Notes under the pieces: generated by a model
The model's database searches: none
What the model was told of the DNA's origin: nothing
Seen by the model: the letters and a program-made list of their open reading frames with translations, nothing else
In this document: one piece after another, positions 1 to 6,212 of the stretch
Layout: each line of letters begins with the position of its first letter
Position numbering within the stretch: the first letter of the stretch is position 1
Translations under genes and position numbers: made by a program
From: Desulfobacterales bacterium
Lineage (GTDB): Bacteria; Desulfobacterota; Desulfobacteria; Desulfobacterales; C00003106
Direction of reading: 5' to 3'
Length of the DNA: 33,365 nucleotides
NCBI GenBank assembly: GCA_030594505.1
Contig: JAUVFC010000001.1
Span: forward strand, 1 to 33,365

Positions 1-374
1 CGGCTTCCCGAGAGCAGGCACAGGGGATCGAACAGGTAAGCAAGGCCGTAGCGGAAATGGACAAAGTAACCCAACAAAATGCAGCAGGCGCCGAAGAGTC
101 GGCTTCCGCCTCACAGAGTATGGGCGCCCAGGCAAAAGAGATGCAAAAGATGGTCAGAAACCTGATAACACTCGCGGGGGAGGAAGAAGATAGCTTTGCC
201 GCATCAAGAGACAAGACCGTTTTGGGCATCGACCGCCCGCGTCCGGAGATTGCCGCACGTGCACGGATTGGTAGAGCACAAGCTGTCAGGGCGGAAAGGC
301 CCGCAAAAAAGAAGGACTTTGTCTCCCCGGAGGAGATCATTCCGATGGAAGAGGAAGAGTTCAGTGAATTCTGA
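1..374 (+). CDS. methyl-accepting chemotaxis protein, C-terminal fragment (5' end outside the window)
   Basis: The frame is open from the window edge (..[35 protein letters not shown]..), matching the distal part of an MCP signalling domain. The tail ..EEIIPMEEEEFSEF is paralogous to the tail of the MCP at 3111..4796. Confidence 0.85.
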   Translation, partial: ASREQAQGIEQVSKAVAEMDKVTQQNAAGAEESASASQSMGAQAKEMQKMVRNLITLAGEEEDSFAASRDKTVLGIDRPRPEIAARARIGRAQAVRAERPAKKKDFVSPEEIIPMEEEEFSEF

Positions 375-506: not shown

Positions 507-2021
507 ATGTCCAGGACGGTAACCATTGACCCGATCACGAGGATCGAAGGCCACCTTGCAATCCGTATAAAGATAGATTCAAGTCGAGTCGTCAAGGCAT
601 TCAGCTCCGGTGAAATGTTTCGAGGATTCGAGGTAATCTTAAAAGGCCGGGACCCCATGGATGCCCAGCAGATTACGCAAAGGATATGCGGTGTGTGTCC
701 GGTATCCCATGGTACAGCGTCTATCCTGGCCCAGGATGCGGCCTACGGGGCAACCCCTCCGAAAAACGGAAGACTGATAAGAAATCTTATCCTGGGCGCC
801 AACTATATACAGTCTCATATCTTACATTTCTATCACCTGGCCGCGCTTGACTTTGTGGATATCACGGCAATTACTAAATACAAGGGAAGAGACCCTGTGC
901 TGCGCGATCTGAAAAAATGGGTAAAGGGTCAGATATCATCGAATGTCATCTATCCCGCGGCGCCGTTCCTTCCACGTTACTCCGGTAAATATATCCAGAA
1001 TACGGGCTTGAATATCCTGGCTATCAAACACTATCTTGACGCCCTGGACATGCGGACACTTGCCCATAAGGCGGGAGCGGTCTTTGGGGGGAAGCTCCCA
1101 CATGCCGCAACCTTGGTGCCCGGTGGCGTAACCGAAAAGGTGACTGCCGTCAAGATAGCCGCATATGCGTCGATGATCAGCAAGTTGCAGACCTTTATCG
1201 ACAAATCGTACCTCACGGACGTGGGGGAAGTGGCAGCGGCCTTCCCTGAATATTTCCGGATAGGCAAGGGGTGCGGCAACTTTTTGGCCTACGGGGTGTT
1301 CCCCGAATCCGCGAATAATTCAGAAAAACTCCTCCCTTCCGGCGTGGTCGTCGGAGGCAGGCTCAGATCCTTTGACGCAGCAAGAATTACGGAAGATGTC
1401 AGGTATTCCTTTTATTCGTCATCATCCGGTCTCCACCCGGTTCAAGGTCAAACAGTGCCTGCGCCACATAAAAATGGGGCCTATTCATGGCTTAAGGCGC
1501 CGCGTTATAACGGAACCGTCGTGGAAGTAGGTCCGTTGGCGCGCATCATGGTCGCCTATCTTAAAGGCGAAAATCGAGCGGTTAAAAAATTAGTAAATGG
1601 TCTTCTTGCCAAGTTGGGGAGAAAACCTAAAGACCTGCTCTCTGTGCTGGGGAGACACGCTGCAAGAGCTATTGAATGTAAAGTAGTAGCAGACCGGTGT
1701 GCTGAATGGGTGGAACAGTTAGTCCCGGGAGAACCGACGTTTCAAGACTTCACCATTCCCAAAACAGGAAGAGGTGTGGGATTGACCGAAGCCCCGCGGG
1801 GTGCATTGGGACACTGGCTTGAGATTGATGATCATAAAATAAAGCGCTACCAATGTGTAGTTCCGACTACATGGAACTGTTCTCCCCGTGATGACAATGG
1901 AAATCCGGGGGCCGTGGAGCAGGCGCTCGCAAGAACGCCGATCGCGAACAGTAAAAATCCGATAGAAGCAACACGGGTGGTGAGATCGTTTGATCCGTGC
2001 ATTGCCTGTGCGGTTCATTAA
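507..2021 (+). CDS. [NiFe] hydrogenase large (catalytic) subunit, 504 aa, no C-terminal maturation extension
   Basis: Carries RIEGH and RICGVCPVSH (Cys61/Cys64) near the N-terminus and DPCIACAVH (Cys498/Cys501/His504) at the very C-terminus. AAGGAG RBS at 494..499. The stop codon directly follows the His. Confidence 0.93.
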   Translation: MSRTVTIDPITRIEGHLAIRIKIDSSRVVKAFSSGEMFRGFEVILKGRDPMDAQQITQRICGVCPVSHGTASILAQDAAYGATPPKNGRLIRNLILGANYIQSHILHFYHLAALDFVDITAITKYKGRDPVLRDLKKWVKGQISSNVIYPAAPFLPRYSGKYIQNTGLNILAIKHYLDALDMRTLAHKAGAVFGGKLPHAATLVPGGVTEKVTAVKIAAYASMISKLQTFIDKSYLTDVGEVAAAFPEYFRIGKGCGNFLAYGVFPESANNSEKLLPSGVVVGGRLRSFDAARITEDVRYSFYSSSSGLHPVQGQTVPAPHKNGAYSWLKAPRYNGTVVEVGPLARIMVAYLKGENRAVKKLVNGLLAKLGRKPKDLLSVLGRHAARAIECKVVADRCAEWVEQLVPGEPTFQDFTIPKTGRGVGLTEAPRGALGHWLEIDDHKIKRYQCVVPTTWNCSPRDDNGNPGAVEQALARTPIANSKNPIEATRVVRSFDPCIACAVH

Positions 2022-2116
2022 CGGGTTGCGGGTTGCGGGTTGCGAGTTGCGGGTTGCGGGTTGATAGATAGAAGAGAAGTAAAACTCGTAACTCGCAACT
2101 CGTAACCCGTAACTGT
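2022..2116 (+). repeat. heptamer-array hairpin (6 x CGRGTTG, 20-nt loop, then AACYCGY units)
   Basis: 2031..2062 pairs with 2083..2114 over 32 consecutive pairs: 26 Watson-Crick plus 6 G-U when read as + strand RNA. The array starts on the base after the large-subunit stop codon. Confidence 0.9.
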
Positions 2117-2183
2117 GTCCACCTGCAAAAACCCTTGTGCCAATTTGGTGTTGTTTTGACGACAAAAAATTAGGAGCTTTCAC

Positions 2184-3107
2184 ATGTCTGATATAACTCG
2201 CAGAAAATTCCTGGAACTGAGTGTAAAGCTGGCCGCGCTGATGGGACTCGGGACATCGGCCATTCCGCAAATTGCCGAAGCGCTGGGACGACTTTCCGCA
2301 GGCGCCGCCCCGGTTTTATGGCTGCAAGGGCAAAGTTGCTCCGGCTGTTCGGTCTCACTATTAAATTCTGAAGAGCCCGGGCCGGCACAGATACTGACAG
2401 GATATATCTCCTTGCTGTTTCATTCCACACTGTCCGCCTCTACGGGTGATGTCAGCATGAAGGTCATTAATCGGAGTATAGACGAGGGGGGATACCTTCT
2501 GGTCGTTGAGGGGAGCATCCCGGCAGGAATGCCGGAAGCGTGCATAGTAGGGAAAGAACATTTAACAAAACAGGTCTTGCGGGCCTCAAGAAACGCCAAA
2601 GCAGTGATCGCTATAGGCACATGCGCATCATTCGGCGGCATCCCTGCCGCGGAAAATAACCCCACCGGCGCCGTGGGTCTTCCTGATTTTCTAAAAAGCA
2701 ACGGTGTCTCAACGCCGGTGATCACCCTGCCCGGTTGCCCCGCCCATCCGGACTGGCTGGTGGGAACTCTGGTGCACGTACTGAAATTTGGAATCCCGTC
2801 TCTGGATGACAAGGGTCGCCCCAAGATGTTTTTTTCCAGGCTGATTCACGATCAATGTCCCCGTTTCGCAGATTATGAAAGGGAGAATTTTGCCGGGACC
2901 TTTTCAGATGAAGGATGCCTTTTCAATCTGGGCTGCCTCGGACCGGTCACCCACGCTGATTGCACCCTGCGCCATTGGAATTCCGGCACCAATTGCTGCA
3001 TCAATGCAGGAGCGCCGTGTATCGGATGTGCCTCGGAAAATTTCGCGGCCAGGGCATCGTTTCCTTTTTATAGAAAAGGGGAACAGAATAAGGGAAAGGA
3101 AAGATAA
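2184..3107 (+). CDS. [NiFe] hydrogenase small (Fe-S) subunit with twin-arginine (Tat) signal peptide
   Basis: The N-terminus MSDITRRKFLELSVKLAALMGLG.. is a Tat motif. CSGC, GTCA and GCP are proximal-cluster motifs. HDQC..C-x5-C..C..CIGC are the distal/medial cluster ligands. AGGAG RBS at 2172..2176. No C-terminal membrane anchor. Confidence 0.92.
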   Translation: MSDITRRKFLELSVKLAALMGLGTSAIPQIAEALGRLSAGAAPVLWLQGQSCSGCSVSLLNSEEPGPAQILTGYISLLFHSTLSASTGDVSMKVINRSIDEGGYLLVVEGSIPAGMPEACIVGKEHLTKQVLRASRNAKAVIAIGTCASFGGIPAAENNPTGAVGLPDFLKSNGVSTPVITLPGCPAHPDWLVGTLVHVLKFGIPSLDDKGRPKMFFSRLIHDQCPRFADYERENFAGTFSDEGCLFNLGCLGPVTHADCTLRHWNSGTNCCINAGAPCIGCASENFAARASFPFYRKGEQNKGKER

Positions 3108-3110
3108 TAT

Positions 3111-4796
3111 ATGAAACTTCATACCAGATTATTTGATCATAAGAAGCTTCATACCAAATTGATTGTTTCGCTCGTGGGGGGCCTGATTGTCGTTGTTGCA
3201 CTGGCCCAGCTTATGCAGTACTTTGGCATTACAGGGTCAATTTCCGGTCTTTCAGAATCAAACATCAATCTCCTCAAGGAGAGGGAAGAAGAGAACGCCA
3301 AAAATATATTCCGGGCAGTAGAACAGGCTGTTGGCGGATCTCTTGAAAGAGGAGAAATGGAAAAATTCACCAAAATCCTCGAAGCCCAACGGGAAGTGGA
3401 AGGCTTGCTCGAGTTTTCTCTGTACGACCGCGAGGGGGTTGTATCACATTCCTCAGATCCTTCATTTCTAAAAAAGGAGCTTCCGCCGGATATTAAAACC
3501 CGGCTACTCGGTTCCCCTGAGATGCTTCTCCTCCATACACAAGAAGCGCTGGAGATTTATCAGCCTCAAAAGATCACAGGCGACTGTATCCGCTGTCATA
3601 TGGATTGGAAGACAGGGGATATAGGAGGGATAACCCATTTTAGATTTTCAACGGAAGCTTTAAGAAAAGCGGAAACGCAGGCAACAGCAACCATAGCGGA
3701 TGCGCAAAGCACATCGCTCAGGAATTCTTTCCTCACCGTACTCGGAATTATTGTCGTATCCGTAGTTACGATGTATTTTCTGATAAAAAAATTCGTAGGC
3801 CGGCCGCTCGACCAATTTATGCGGCTCCTGAAACAATCTAAAGGAGACCTTACACGTCGAATGCCGATAACAACACAAGACGAAATAGGGCAATTGGCAC
3901 GCTGGTTCAACTCCTTCATGGAACAGTTAAACAATGCAATCGGACATGCACAAGAGGCGGCCTTTATAGTAGGAAGCGGGGCCAGCGAACAAGCGGCCGC
4001 GGTAGAAGAGACCTCCGGATCCATGGAAGAGATGGCCTCCATGACCAAACAGAATGCGAGCAATGCTCAGGAAGCAAACAAGTTAATGACGGAAGTCTCT
4101 CAGGAGATCCATCAGGCCAATGAATCAATGAACTCCCTGACTCGCGCAATGGAGGAACTCTCAGAGGCAAGTGATAAAACAGCCAGGATCGTCAAGACAA
4201 TCGATGAAATTGCCTTTCAGACAAATCTCCTTGCCCTGAATGCAGCGGTGGAAGCTGCCCGTGCAGGAGAGGCAGGGGCAGGTTTTGCGGTAGTGGCTGA
4301 TGAGGTCAGAAACCTTGCCATGAGAGCAGCCGAATCCGCCAAGAGCACATCGGAACTGATCGACGACACCGTAAACAAGATCAAGGACAGCAGTGGTTTG
4401 GTAAGCAGGGCAAACGAAGCGTTTGAAGATGTGGCAGGGAGAAGTAAAAAGGCGGCGGCGCTGGTTAAAGAAATCGCAGCAGCTTCGCAAGAGCAGGCTC
4501 AAGGGATCGAGCAGGTCAATAAATCATTAGTGGAAATGGACAGGACAACCCAGGAAAACGCTGCACAGTCCGAAGAACTCACAGCTACCATGTCAATATT
4601 TAAAACAGAGCAAAGTGAAAATGAAAAACAGATTGAAGCTCCAGGCATAGCTTCAAAATCTGAAAAGAAGATTCGACCTGAAAAGAAGATTCGACCTGAA
4701 AAGGAGATTCGACCTGAAAAGATTATCCCGATGGATGATGACCTGTGGGATAATGACCTATGGGATAATGATGAAAAAAAATTCGAGGATTTTTAA
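3111..4796 (+). CDS. methyl-accepting chemotaxis protein with periplasmic CXXCH (haem-c type) sensor domain
   Basis: TM1 spans residues 17-38. A periplasmic domain of about 165 aa contains CIRCH (3585..3599). TM2 spans residues 206-226, followed by a HAMP-like segment. The signalling domain has the tip motif [38 protein letters not shown]. The ATG lies 3 nt after the small-subunit stop. Confidence 0.92.
4661..4724 (+). repeat. in-frame 18-bp tandem repeat (3.5 copies) in the MCP C-terminal linker
   Basis: tgaaaagaagattcgacc x2, tgaaaaggagattcgacc, then a partial tgaaaagatt. Encodes (E)[20 protein letters not shown]. Confidence 0.95.
4740..4769 (+). repeat. in-frame 15-bp tandem repeat (2 copies) in the MCP tail
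   Basis: gacctgtgggataat / gacctatgggataat, encoding [10 protein letters not shown]. Confidence 0.95.
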
Positions 4797-5176
4797 TTGT
4801 TGACTTTCTCGGTTTTACCTTCTGCGGCAATCAACTCCACAAAAGACATGGGAGCAGCATCTCCTCTCCGGCGCCCTGTCTTTGTTATCCTGGTATATCC
4901 GCCGTTTCTGTTCCCATAGAGGTTATGTGCTTCTTCAAAAAGCTTGTGGACGACCTTCTTGTTTCTCACCACTGCAAGGGCCTGTCTTCTGGCATGAAGA
5001 TCTCCCCGTTTTGCTAATGTAATTATCTTGTCAGCCCAACGCCGGACCTCCTTGGCTCTGGTATCGGTAGTCCTGATGTGACCGTGCTCCAATAATGAGG
5101 TCACCATATTTCTAAACATCGCCGTCCGATGACTCGATGTTCTATTCAGCTTTAATCCGGATTTGAGGTGTCTCAT
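4793..5176 (-). CDS. rplQ: 50S ribosomal protein L17
   Basis: [17 protein letters not shown].. is a typical L17 N-terminus. The ATG at 5176 is preceded by GAAGGGGA. The ORF track's upstream start (5197) was not used. Confidence 0.92.
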
Positions 5177-6212
5177 TTTTCCCCTTCTCTTTCTCATTGT
5201 TGTCGGGCGACAGTGGGAAACCTTCCAATTTCATCCCTAAAGAGAGGGACATTTCAGCTAAAATCTCTTTAATCTCGTTCAACGACTTGCGCCCAAAATT
5301 TTTTGTCTTTAGCATCTCGACCTCTGTTTTTTGAACCAGGTCACTGATATATTTTATATCGGCATTCTTGAGACAGTTGGCCGAACGTACCGAAAGCTCA
5401 AGTTCATCCACGCTTCTGAACAGATTTTGATTGATCTCAGGTTCTTCTTTCGTGGGTTCCTCTTCAACTACCACTTCCTCATCAAAATTAATAAAAAGGG
5501 TAAGCTGTTCTTTTAATATCTTTGCGGCATATGCCACAGAGTCTTCCGGCAAGACACTTCCATCAGTCCATACTTCCAGGCTCAGCTTGTCATAGTCGGT
5601 CTTCTGGCCCACACGAGCATTGCCAACAATATAATTAACCTTCTTTATGGGAGAAAAAACAGCATCAAGCGGGACGGTCCCAAGGGGGCTGTCTTCCTCT
5701 TTATTTAATTCCGATGGGACATACCCTTTCCCCACCTTTACAGTAATGTCCATAGCCAGTTTGCCATCCTTGGAAAGTGTTGCAATGTGGCGCTCAGGAT
5801 TCAACACGACCACACTTCCATCGGTTATAAGGTCAGACGCTTTAACAACACACTCTCCCGAGGCCTTGATCCGCACTGTTCGCGGCCCCATATCTTCCAT
5901 TTTGAAACAGACTTCTTTAATATTTAACAAAAGATCTGCCACATCTTCCAACACACCGGGAATGCTTGTGAATTCATGTGTCACCGAATCAATCTTCACT
6001 GATGTCGCAGCAGCGCCGTACAGTGAAGACAAAAGTACTCTTCGCAGGGCATTGCCGATGGTCAGGCCAAACCCTCTTTCCAACGGCTCACAAACAAACT
6101 TTCCATAATAATTCTTGTGCGTTTCAGGAATTATGTTGACCCTTTTAGGCTTGATAAGCTCACGCCAATTAATGGACATTAATCCTTTTGATTCTTTCGA
6201 TCCCATTATCAT
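5142..6212 (-). CDS. rpoA: DNA-directed RNA polymerase alpha subunit
   Basis: ..[11 protein letters not shown].. N-terminal domain and a C-terminal domain with [13 protein letters not shown]. The start is uncertain: ATG at 6212 or 6206 (after GGGGAG) or ATG at 6179 (after AAGGA). The 3' end overlaps rplQ by 35 nt. Confidence 0.9.

What the first reader, a model, noticed from the sequence alone, without database searches (positions are those of the whole stretch)
3225..3725. Periplasmic sensor domain of the MCP carries a single CXXCH haem-c attachment motif
Seen in the sequence: a domain of about 165 residues sits between TM1 (3159..3224) and TM2 (3726..3788). It contains ..[21 protein letters not shown].. 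(CIRCH at 3585..3599), the only Cys pair in the ectodomain. Established knowledge: CXXCH is the covalent attachment site for c-type haem in periplasmic proteins. Single-haem PAS-like sensor domains occur in Geobacter MCPs, and DcrA of Desulfovibrio is a haem-c MCP. Inference: this receptor senses redox state or a gas rather than a small-molecule attractant.
Basis: partly seen in the sequence, partly recalled or inferred. Interest (0 to 1): 0.6.

Follow-up and report, generated by a model that had tools for sequence, protein, structure and literature searches.

The report
Haem chemoreceptor wired to a hydrogenase
The chemotaxis receptor has an outward-facing sensor domain with an invariant haem-attachment site, and its gene almost always follows the genes of an exported hydrogen-splitting enzyme, so it probably lets the cell steer by hydrogen gas, a sense not yet described in bacteria.

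Summary
The MCP (window 3111..4796, 561 aa) has a 167-residue periplasmic domain between two TM helices. CIRCH (aa 159-163, nt 3585..3599) holds the only two cysteines of the protein.

- **Conservation:** C-x-x-C-H is present in 120/120 homologues and 136/139 representatives clustered at 50% identity. Met83 and Gly81 are invariant in all 140 sequences.
- **Fold:** the AlphaFold model (pLDDT 91.8) is a single-Cache / PAS-like fold.
- **Family:** profile comparison shows remote homology over the whole domain to the Geobacter haem-c sensors GSU0582/GSU0935 (96.7%, E 3e-10). It matches Tll0287-like domains only around the haem site. No Pfam model reaches its cut-off, so this is an unassigned third branch of haem-c Cache sensors.
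- **Gene context:** the sensor gene directly follows a [NiFe] hydrogenase (large then small subunit). The small subunit has a Tat signal and the large subunit has no C-terminal maturation peptide. This holds in about 90% of relatives across at least six phyla, and in 0/28 loci with other haem-c sensors.

Best reading (about 0.55): the hydrogenase reduces the receptor's haem, a Met83 ligand switch signals, and the result is H2 taxis. I found no description of this in the papers I could search. Earlier notes of this scan report the same cassette on other genomes. Nothing here is shown biochemically.

The parts
3111..4796 (+). Methyl-accepting chemotaxis protein, 561 aa: TM1, haem-c Cache sensor, TM2, HAMP, MCP signalling domain
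   Evidence: ORF. Pfam HAMP E 2.4e-9 and MCPsignal E 3.2e-42.
3159..3224 (+). TM1 (about aa 17-38), preceded by a basic cytoplasmic N-terminus
   Evidence: Hydropathy windows above 1.6 start at aa 12-26. In the model this helix continues into the long N-terminal helix of the sensor.
3225..3725 (+). Periplasmic sensor domain (aa 39-205), single-Cache / PAS-like fold, predicted to carry one c-type haem
   Evidence: AF2 pLDDT 91.8. Foldseek hits to WalK, KinD, DctB, DcuS, CitA and to GSU0935/GSU0582. hhalign to the GSU0582/0935 family gives 96.7%, E 3.3e-10.
3339..3359 (+). S-L-E-R-G-E-M motif (aa 77-83). Gly81 breaks the N-terminal helix. Invariant Met83 (nt 3357..3359) is the candidate distal haem ligand.
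   Evidence: G81 and M83 are invariant in 140/140 sequences. The helix break at model residues 52-53 corresponds to aa 81-82. This stretch aligns with the M-M-x-G-D/E-M/S stretch of GSU0582/0935, which holds the ligand Met60.
3585..3599 (+). C-I-R-C-H (aa 159-163): haem-c attachment motif with proximal His163, in a short helix between two beta strands
   Evidence: DSSP helix at model residues 130-132. It aligns with the CXXCH of PF11845 and PF21563 members.
3726..3794 (+). TM2 (about aa 206-228)
   Evidence: Hydropathy windows starting at aa 201-212. HAMP follows at aa 229.
3795..3932 (+). HAMP domain (aa 229-274)
   Evidence: Pfam PF00672, E 2.4e-9.
4089..4547 (+). MCP signalling domain (aa 327-479)
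   Evidence: Pfam PF00015, E 3.2e-42.
2184..3107 (+). [NiFe] hydrogenase small subunit, 307 aa, Tat signal RRKFLE, no membrane anchor. Its stop codon lies 3 nt before the MCP start codon.
   Evidence: Pfam Oxidored_q6 and NiFe_hyd_SSU_C. Closest solved structure is the D. vulgaris periplasmic NiFeSe small subunit. 67/68 cassette small subunits have RRxF[LM].
507..2021 (+). [NiFe] hydrogenase large subunit, 504 aa, ending ..DPCIACAVH-stop with no C-terminal maturation peptide
   Evidence: Pfam NiFeSe_Hases E 8.5e-163. C-terminus. All 63 cassette large subunits end at this His.
3..374 (+). C-terminal end of a second MCP gene upstream of the hydrogenase (its sensor lies off the contig)
   Evidence: NCBIfam matches to MCP C-terminal regions.

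Best explanation
The periplasmic domain is a single-Cache (PAS-like) sensor that carries one covalently bound c-type haem. The haem is attached at Cys159/Cys162, with His163 as the proximal ligand. The domain is the dedicated redox partner of the soluble, Tat-exported [NiFe] hydrogenase encoded immediately upstream. When H2 is present, the hydrogenase passes electrons from its distal FeS cluster to the receptor haem, either directly or through a small cytochrome. Reduction changes the haem's spin and ligation state, most likely by binding or release of the invariant Met83. Met83 sits at the helix break (Gly81) that joins the TM1-continuous helix to the Cache core. That movement is transmitted through TM2 and HAMP to the signalling tip and CheA, giving taxis in response to H2. 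What is shown: the motif, its invariance, the fold, the remote homology and the gene linkage. What is inferred: haem binding, electron transfer, the Met83 switch and the behavioural output.
For: - **Motif and ligand candidate:** CXXCH is invariant. Met83 and Gly81 are invariant in 140/140 sequences. No other His or Met of the ectodomain is conserved.
- **Fold:** confident Cache/PAS-like model.
- **Homology:** whole-domain profile homology to GSU0582/GSU0935. In those proteins, haem reduction converts high-spin to low-spin by Met ligation (PMC8396549).
- **Gene linkage, unbiased sample:** in a profile (HMM) search of 401 genomes of the phylum, not seeded on any motif, 18/29 hits have the large and small subunit genes directly upstream. 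This includes all 17 best hits.
- **Gene linkage, close family:** of 79 loci from Thermodesulfobacteriota, Verrucomicrobiota, Planctomycetota, Sumerlaeota, Magnetococcales and others, about 67 of 75 assessable have the small subunit directly upstream. In four more the sensor gene lies 360-1,550 nt downstream; in two of these the gap holds a tandem second sensor gene. Four lack it.
- **Unlinked cases:** two genomes with an unlinked sensor still hold a cassette-type large subunit elsewhere.
- **Same genus:** three same-genus genomes have the identical cassette.
- **Negative control:** 0/28 loci with PF11845- or PF21563-type sensors have a hydrogenase nearby.
- **Co-localisation:** 67/68 small subunits have a Tat motif and none has a membrane anchor, so enzyme and sensor share the periplasm.
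- **Natural acceptors:** the closest solved hydrogenases are the Desulfovibrio periplasmic enzymes. Their natural acceptors are c-type cytochromes (established knowledge).
- **A distinct sensor-like lineage:** cassette large subunits all lack the C-terminal peptide. They are separated by a 100/100 branch from canonical uptake enzymes of the same genomes.
- **Separate respiratory enzyme:** the window's own genome has a canonical uptake hydrogenase with its protease and hyp genes on another contig.
- **Haem-c capacity:** the genome encodes multihaem cytochromes. All five same-genus genomes have ResB.
- **Output:** 67/72 family members are MCPs.
Against: - No biochemical evidence exists for haem binding, electron transfer or H2 taxis.
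- I could not read model coordinates, so the proximity of Met83 to His163 is untested.
- The ligand Met60 of GSU0935 aligns with Leu78, not Met83.
- Signal-coupled sCache_heme proteins tested so far behave as NO sensors (PMC12889525).
- Operon linkage could reflect co-regulation rather than physical coupling.
- In one genome the hydrogenase and the sensors are at separate loci.
- ResB was not found in the window's own 78%-complete genome.
- The large locus set was retrieved with a pattern containing the Met motif, so it cannot be used to count Met conservation.
Confidence: 0.55

Rival explanations
1. The haem is a direct sensor of a diatomic gas (NO, CO or O2). The gas displaces a weak distal ligand, and the hydrogenase is only co-expressed. 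All three gases inhibit [NiFe] hydrogenases, so the receptor could steer cells away from conditions that poison the enzyme.
For: A signal-coupled sCache_heme protein binds NO tightly (PMC12889525). GSU0582/0935 bind CO and NO with displacement of Met (PMC8396549). The domain is homologous to these proteins.
Against: This does not explain why the linkage is specific to this branch and absent from 28 loci with other haem-c sensors. It does not explain why the linked hydrogenase is a separate, sensor-like lineage without a maturation peptide and without any other acceptor gene. It does not explain why genomes with unlinked sensors still keep that hydrogenase.
Confidence: 0.2
2. The receptor is a general periplasmic redox (energy-taxis) sensor. 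Its haem equilibrates with the cytochrome c3 pool, and the adjacent hydrogenase is an ordinary extra uptake enzyme that feeds the same pool.
For: The genome encodes four tetrahaem cytochromes of c3 size and a 16-haem protein. The closest solved hydrogenases reduce cytochrome c3. The Geobacter homologues are thought to read ambient redox potential.
Against: No cytochrome gene is part of the conserved three-gene core. The organism already has a canonical uptake hydrogenase. The cassette enzyme's loss of the maturation peptide and its reversed gene order are conserved across phyla together with the sensor.
Confidence: 0.17
3. The CXXCH does not bind haem. It is a redox-active dithiol or a metal site in a ligand-binding Cache domain.
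For: Haem attachment was not measured. ResB was not found in the window's own incomplete genome.
Against: The His after the second Cys is invariant. The motif aligns with the haem site of solved haem-c sensors. An invariant Met is available as sixth ligand. The genus has a System II maturation gene and the genome has multihaem cytochromes.
Confidence: 0.05

Closest known systems
Geobacter sulfurreducens MCP sensor domains GSU0582 and GSU0935 (PDB 3B47, 3B42; Pfam PF21563 Mcp40H-20_sensor)
   Same: Both are periplasmic single-haem-c PAS-like/Cache sensors of an MCP placed between two TM helices. Homology covers the whole domain (hhalign 96.7%, E 3.3e-10, 128 columns). The CXXCH sits at the same place. 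A Met-bearing helix-break motif (M-M-x-G-D/E-M/S against S-L-E-R-G-E-M) lies about 80 residues before the proximal His.
   Different: Identity is only 19%. No member of this family passes the PF21563 cut-off. The ligand Met60 position is Leu here, and the invariant Met lies five residues later. The Geobacter-type sensors are not next to hydrogenases (0/8 loci).
sCache_heme family (DUF3365 / Tll0287-like, PF11845; Deshpande et al., bioRxiv 2026, PMC12889525)
   Same: Both have a Cache fold with a strictly conserved CXXCH in a short helical insertion before the last strands, and both are fused to MCP or kinase outputs. The strand-CXXCH-strand module aligns (hhalign 91.7%, E 7.6e-7).
   Different: Only 34 columns align. 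The N-P-x-N-P..F-E signature of PF11845 is absent. The Pfam score is 12.8 bits against a cut-off of 24.1. The paper reports NO sensing or redox roles and does not mention hydrogenases.
Regulatory H2-sensing [NiFe] hydrogenases of group 2b (HoxBC-HoxJ of Cupriavidus necator, HupUV-HupT). The comparison rests on established knowledge.
   Same: In both, a hydrogenase without the C-terminal maturation peptide is dedicated to a PAS-type signalling protein rather than to respiration.
   Different: Here the enzyme is Tat-exported and belongs to the periplasmic group-1 type by sequence. The partner is a haem-c Cache domain outside the membrane, and the output is chemotaxis rather than transcription.
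DcrA of Desulfovibrio vulgaris (haem-c MCP; from my own knowledge, Fu, Wall and Voordouw 1994)
   Same: Both are MCPs with a periplasmic CXXCH haem, thought to sense redox potential or oxygen in a sulfate reducer.
   Different: It was not compared here because I had no sequence at hand. I know of no reported hydrogenase linkage for it.

Membership tests
sCache_heme (DUF3365/Tll0287-like, PF11845) | Extracytoplasmic single-Cache fold | tested here: met
   AF2 pLDDT 91.8 with helix-helix-beta2-helix-beta3-helix topology. Foldseek top hits are sCache/PDC sensors (WalK, KinD, DctB, DcuS, CitA) at E 1e-6 to 1e-3.
sCache_heme (DUF3365/Tll0287-like, PF11845) | Strictly conserved CXXCH | tested here: met
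   120/120 homologues. 136/139 representatives, the exceptions being two fragments and one W-x-x-C-H.
sCache_heme (DUF3365/Tll0287-like, PF11845) | CXXCH in a short helical insertion between core strands, at the family's position | tested here: met
   DSSP helix at the motif between strands aa 146-154 and 171-180. hhalign aligns strand-CXXCH-strand with bona fide PF11845 members, 91.7%, E 7.6e-7.
sCache_heme (DUF3365/Tll0287-like, PF11845) | Score at or above the Pfam gathering cut-off (24.1 bits) | tested here: not met
   12.8 bits, E 0.16. 20/47 family members give only sub-threshold hits, best E 0.0057.
sCache_heme (DUF3365/Tll0287-like, PF11845) | Covalently bound haem c | not testable with these tools
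   Needs expression with a maturation system and a pyridine haemochrome assay.
Geobacter-type haem-c MCP sensor (PF21563; GSU0582/GSU0935) | Sequence homology over the sensor domain | tested here: met
   hhalign of A2 against 8 bona fide PF21563 members gives 96.7%, E 3.3e-10, 128 columns. That set hits 3B47 and 3B42 at E 7e-41 and 4e-36.
Geobacter-type haem-c MCP sensor (PF21563; GSU0582/GSU0935) | Score at or above the Pfam gathering cut-off (27 bits) | tested here: not met
   No hit for the window's protein. 8/47 members are sub-threshold, best E 0.0095.
Geobacter-type haem-c MCP sensor (PF21563; GSU0582/GSU0935) | Distal Met ligand at the position of Met60 | tested here: inconclusive
   Met60 aligns with invariant Leu78. 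The invariant Met83 lies five residues later and matches the second Met of GSU0582's M-M-A-G-D-M. No coordinates were available to measure distances.
Regulatory H2-sensing hydrogenase systems (group 2b) | Large subunit without C-terminal maturation peptide | tested here: met
   Ends DPCIACAVH-stop. The same holds in 63/63 cassette enzymes, while canonical ones carry 14-17 extra residues.
Regulatory H2-sensing hydrogenase systems (group 2b) | Cytoplasmic enzyme (small subunit without Tat signal) | tested here: not met
   RRKFLE Tat motif in the window. 67/68 cassette small subunits have RRxF[LM].
Regulatory H2-sensing hydrogenase systems (group 2b) | Partner is a cytoplasmic PAS histidine kinase | tested here: not met
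   The partner is an MCP with a periplasmic haem-c Cache domain. 67/72 members are MCPs and 3 are hybrid kinases.

The most novel reading that the evidence does not exclude
The cassette is a periplasmic hydrogen sensor of a new design. A soluble, exported [NiFe] hydrogenase, freed from respiration, docks on and reduces the single haem of a Cache-fold chemoreceptor. The redox state of one haem then reports ambient H2 directly to the flagellar motor. This would be the first molecularly defined bacterial H2 chemoreceptor. It is spread by transfer of the three-gene unit across at least six phyla of anaerobes.
Probability: 0.5. Interest if true: 0.85.

Novelty: new variant of a known kind. Interest (0 to 1): 0.68.

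Why it matters
H2 is a central currency of anaerobic communities. Taxis towards H2 has been observed in a methanogen (PMC3817446, seen), but I found no receptor for it described in bacteria.

This family offers a concrete, testable candidate: three genes, two of them well-understood metalloprotein types, with cultured carriers available. It would add a periplasmic, chemotaxis-coupled design to the known cytoplasmic, kinase-coupled H2 sensors. It would also give the newly defined haem-c Cache sensors a physiological redox partner. In practice, the domain currently has no Pfam assignment, so these receptors are annotated only as generic MCPs.

Tried and rejected
- **Selenocysteine read-through:** I asked whether the large subunit continues past a TGA. 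It ends ..CAVH followed by TAA, and the downstream frame is closed.
- **PDB by sequence:** searches with the sensor alone and with its profile found nothing significant. The first profile (A1) was useless because it carried the MCP signalling domain.
- **PF01578 hit:** I first took the PF01578 hit in the own genome as a cytochrome c maturation gene. It lies in a haem biosynthesis cluster next to hemA (HemX-like), so I do not count it.
- **Maturation genes:** ResB was not found in the own 78%-complete genome. CcmE was not found in the genus. ResB is present in 5/5 same-genus genomes.
- **Same-genus weak hits:** I took weak PF11845 hits in same-genus 557-572 aa proteins for orthologues. They are not, having no hydrogenase nearby and only 24% identity. 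The true orthologues came from a separate search.
- **HydDB group 2c:** I considered assigning the hydrogenase to group 2c (diguanylate-cyclase-linked). Its L2 motif SFDxCLVCTVH (PMC4853749) differs from SFDPCIACAVH here, and group 2 enzymes are cytosolic.
- **Che genes as core:** CheA or CheW lie nearby in only about 10 of 71 loci, so they are not part of the conserved core.
- **Tools and papers not available:** The Greening et al. 2016 paper could not be fetched.
Full report
**1. The observation**

The + strand ORF 3111..4796 encodes a 561-aa protein with a HAMP domain (aa 229-274) and an MCP signalling domain (aa 327-479). Two hydrophobic segments (about aa 13-38 and 201-230) flank a 167-residue stretch, aa 39-205 = nt 3225..3725. 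Basic residues lie before TM1 and after TM2, so this stretch faces the periplasm. It reads ..[21 protein letters not shown].., with CIRCH at nt 3585..3599.

The two cysteines are the only ones in the whole protein. Shuffling the ectodomain's residues yields C-x-x-C-H in 63 of 200,000 trials.

**2. Conservation**

A search restricted to the N-terminal 215 residues returned 262 proteins. All 120 listed (47-83% identical in the sensor) have exactly one C-[IVLT]-R-C-H.

An exhaustive phmmer search of 1.84 billion cluster representatives found 397 clusters at E <= 0.001 and 300 at E <= 1e-10. Of 139 new representatives, 136 have CXXCH. Two of the exceptions are truncated fragments and one reads W-x-x-C-H.

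In that unbiased set, Gly81 and Met83 are invariant in 140/140 sequences. They are part of an S-L-E-R-G-E-M-x-K-F motif. Trp166 and Gly173 are nearly invariant. No other His or Met of the ectodomain is conserved: His113 83%, Met138 60%, His142 32%, His176 44%.

**3. Fold and family**

No Pfam model passes its cut-off on the sensor. Tll0287-like (PF11845) scores 12.8 bits against a cut-off of 24.1. Across 47 family members there are only sub-threshold hits to PF11845 (20 members) and PF21563 (8 members). Sequence searches of the PDB find nothing.

An AlphaFold2 model built on 120 sequences is confident (pLDDT 91.8, pTM 0.81). Its elements, in protein numbering, are:
- a long helix continuous with TM1 (aa 31-80);
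- a break at Gly81-Glu82;
- a second helix starting at Met83 (aa 83-95);
- two strands, a helix, then two more strands;
- a short helix on the CXXCH;
- a last strand and a long helix leading into TM2.

Foldseek against the PDB returns single- and double-Cache/PDC sensors (WalK, KinD, DctB, DcuS, CitA). It also returns the two solved haem-c MCP sensors of Geobacter: 3B42 at E 3.5e-4 and 3B47 at E 1.2e-3.

To test homology I collected bona fide members of both haem-c families from related genomes.
- Fourteen PF11845 domains align with this family at 91.7% probability (E 7.6e-7). The alignment covers only 34 columns: the strand, the CXXCH and the following strand.
- Eight PF21563 domains hit 3B47 and 3B42 at E 7e-41 and 4e-36. 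They align with this family at 96.7% probability (E 3.3e-10) over 128 columns, which is nearly the whole domain.

The sensor is thus a remote homologue of GSU0582/GSU0935. It belongs to the haem-c Cache sensors defined as sCache_heme in a 2026 preprint (PMC12889525), but it forms a branch that no current model captures.

**4. The likely sixth ligand**

In GSU0935 the axial ligands are His144 and Met60. The haem is high-spin when oxidised and low-spin when reduced, attributed to Met60 binding. CO and NO displace that Met (PMC8396549).

Met60 is the first Met of Y-M-M-K-G-D-S, 84 residues before the His. In the profile alignment this stretch matches S-L-E-R-G-E-M here. Met60 falls on invariant Leu78. 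The invariant Met83 (80 residues before His163) falls on the Ser of GSU0935 and on the last Met of GSU0582's M-M-A-G-D-M.

Met83 is therefore the only invariant candidate for a protein-derived distal ligand, and it lies in the homologous helix-break region. It is not at the position of the proven ligand, and I could not measure distances in the model. I rate the assignment as plausible, not shown.

**5. Gene context**

The MCP start codon lies 3 nt after the stop of a [NiFe] hydrogenase small subunit gene (2184..3107; Tat motif RRKFLE). That gene follows the large subunit gene (507..2021). The large subunit ends ..DPCIACAVH-stop, without the peptide that a maturation protease normally removes.

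The same three genes in the same order appear in unrelated surroundings in other metagenomic contigs. One of these is from an Omnitrophota MAG.

In an HMM search of 401 genomes sampled across the phylum, 26 genomes had a match. Of 29 loci, 18 have the large and small subunit genes directly upstream. This includes all 17 best-scoring loci, down to about 27% sensor identity.

A scan of 185,579 species genomes returned 79 loci of the close family. It was seeded on the peptide SLERGEMxK, so it is not usable for counting the Met. The loci come from Thermodesulfobacteriota, Verrucomicrobiota, Planctomycetota, Sumerlaeota, Magnetococcales and others. Of about 75 loci with assessable upstream DNA:
- about 67 have the small subunit directly upstream;
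- four have the sensor gene 360-1,550 nt downstream of the small subunit. In two of these (L061, L121) the gap holds a second, tandem sensor gene; I did not examine what fills the other two (L086, L122);
- four lack it.

The genomes of two of the 'lacking' loci still hold a cassette-type large subunit elsewhere, at 69% and 76% identity. Three of five same-genus genomes carry the identical cassette.

As a control, none of 28 loci with PF11845- or PF21563-type sensors has a hydrogenase within the flanks. CheA and CheW are nearby in only about 10 of 71 loci. The conserved unit is therefore the three genes. Outputs are MCPs in 67 of 72 members and hybrid histidine kinases in three.

**6. The hydrogenase**

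Its closest solved relatives are the soluble periplasmic [NiFeSe] and [NiFe] enzymes of Desulfovibrio. By established knowledge these reduce periplasmic c-type cytochromes.
- Of 68 cassette small subunits, 67 have an RRxF[LM] Tat motif. All are 302-311 aa long, so none has a membrane anchor.
- All 63 cassette large subunits end at the final His. Canonical group-1 large subunits of the same genomes carry 14-17 further residues.
- In a maximum-likelihood tree the six canonical enzymes form one clade, split from all extension-less ones by a branch with 100/100 support.
- The window's own genome has a separate canonical uptake enzyme on another contig: small subunit, then a 546-aa large subunit with a 15-residue extension, then the endopeptidase, hypC and hypB. 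It also has three more distant [NiFe] large subunits.

The cassette enzyme is thus an additional, distinct lineage. It shares with the known H2-sensing regulatory hydrogenases the loss of the maturation peptide. Unlike them it is exported.

**7. Can the organism make haem c?**

The genome (1.7 Mb, 78% complete) encodes seven ORFs with two or more CXXCH motifs. These include a 16-haem protein and four tetrahaem proteins of cytochrome c3 size.

The single PF01578 hit is HemX-like, next to hemA, and I do not count it. ResB was not found in the own genome but is present in all five same-genus genomes. CcmE was found in none of the five same-genus genomes searched. A System II maturation pathway in the genus is therefore likely.

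**8. Mechanism proposed**

The hydrogenase and the sensor are both periplasmic and are made from one operon.
- With H2, the enzyme reduces the receptor's haem. I favour direct transfer from the distal cluster, because no cytochrome belongs to the conserved core.
- Reduction changes ligation at the distal side, probably through Met83.
- Met83 sits at the Gly81 break between the TM1-continuous helix and the Cache core, so a ligand switch there would move the membrane-proximal helices.
- The signal then passes through TM2 and HAMP.

One lead for a docking surface concerns the Arg inside C-x-R-C-H. It is present in 17 of 18 hydrogenase-linked sensors of the phylum sample but in 1 of 7 unlinked paralogues, which have Glu or Gly. 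Among 140 representatives it is Arg in 102 and Glu in 24. Related sequences are not independent, so this is only a lead.

**9. Rivals**

- A direct NO/CO/O2 sensor, as shown for another signal-coupled sCache_heme protein, remains possible. It would make biological sense because these gases inhibit hydrogenases. It does not explain the specificity and persistence of the linkage to a dedicated hydrogenase lineage.
- A general redox sensor equilibrating with the cytochrome c3 pool is a milder version of my reading.
- A non-haem role for CXXCH is unlikely.

**10. Comparison with what is known, and novelty**

Haem-c PAS-like/Cache sensors in MCPs have been known since 2008 and were generalised in 2026.

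What I did not find in seven full-text searches is any description of a haem-c chemoreceptor coupled to a periplasmic hydrogenase. One neighbourhood survey lists an MCP cluster near [NiFe] large subunits without comment (PMC12727194). HydDB lists chemotaxis-linked sensors only among [FeFe] enzymes (group C2), and diguanylate-cyclase-linked ones among [NiFe] (group 2c). The library searched is incomplete, so absence there is not proof.

Earlier notes of this scan describe the same kind of cassette on other genomes, and on this window as a separate finding. I treated them as leads and ran my own tests.

**11. Limits**

Everything functional is inferred.

Noticed in passing
window 507..3107: The hydrogenase has reversed gene order (large then small subunit), no C-terminal maturation peptide and a Tat small subunit. 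These traits are conserved in all 63 cassette enzymes examined. The same genome has a canonical uptake hydrogenase with protease and hyp genes on contig C226.
   Followed up: yes
window 2022..2183: The spacer between the large and small subunit genes is 162 nt and holds tandem repeats (it translates as RVAGCGLRVAGCGL). In most relatives this spacer is only about 18-25 nt.
   Followed up: no
window 3111..3164: The MCP N-terminus reads [17 protein letters not shown], which looks like a 10-codon duplication of the MKLHTKL start seen in most homologues. The closest relatives (P0001, L059, L060) share it.
   Followed up: no
L061 (2983..3510 and 4989..5525); L121 (3469..4023 and 4986..5540): Two tandem haem-sensor MCP paralogues follow one hydrogenase, so one enzyme may serve several receptors.
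   Followed up: partly
L071, L129, L131: Cassette contigs are binned in MAGs labelled Promethearchaeota and Bifidobacteriaceae. The L071 large subunit is sister to a Thermodesulfobacteriota one, so these are probably binning errors rather than real hosts.
   Followed up: partly
L155 (G306:C1:798805-800241): A further [NiFe] large subunit without C-terminal extension (ends ..RSADPCIACSVH) groups with that genome's cassette enzyme. Its neighbours were not examined.
   Followed up: no
P0179: One family representative has W-x-x-C-H in place of C-x-x-C-H. This is either a single-cysteine haem attachment variant or a sequencing error.
   Followed up: no
L051-L053 (phylum sample): Weakly related sensors carry two CXXCH-type motifs (C-Y-G-C-H and C-L/F-P-C-H), lack the Met motif, and have no hydrogenase upstream. 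They are probably a separate two-haem sensor family.
   Followed up: no
window 2184..3107 (small subunit aa about 255-285): The small subunit reads N-C-C-I-N-A-G-A-P-C-I-G-C where the genome's canonical enzyme reads S-W-P-V-E-A-G-H-P-C-I-G-C. The extra Cys matches the position that gives NiFeSe enzymes a [4Fe-4S] medial cluster.
   Followed up: no
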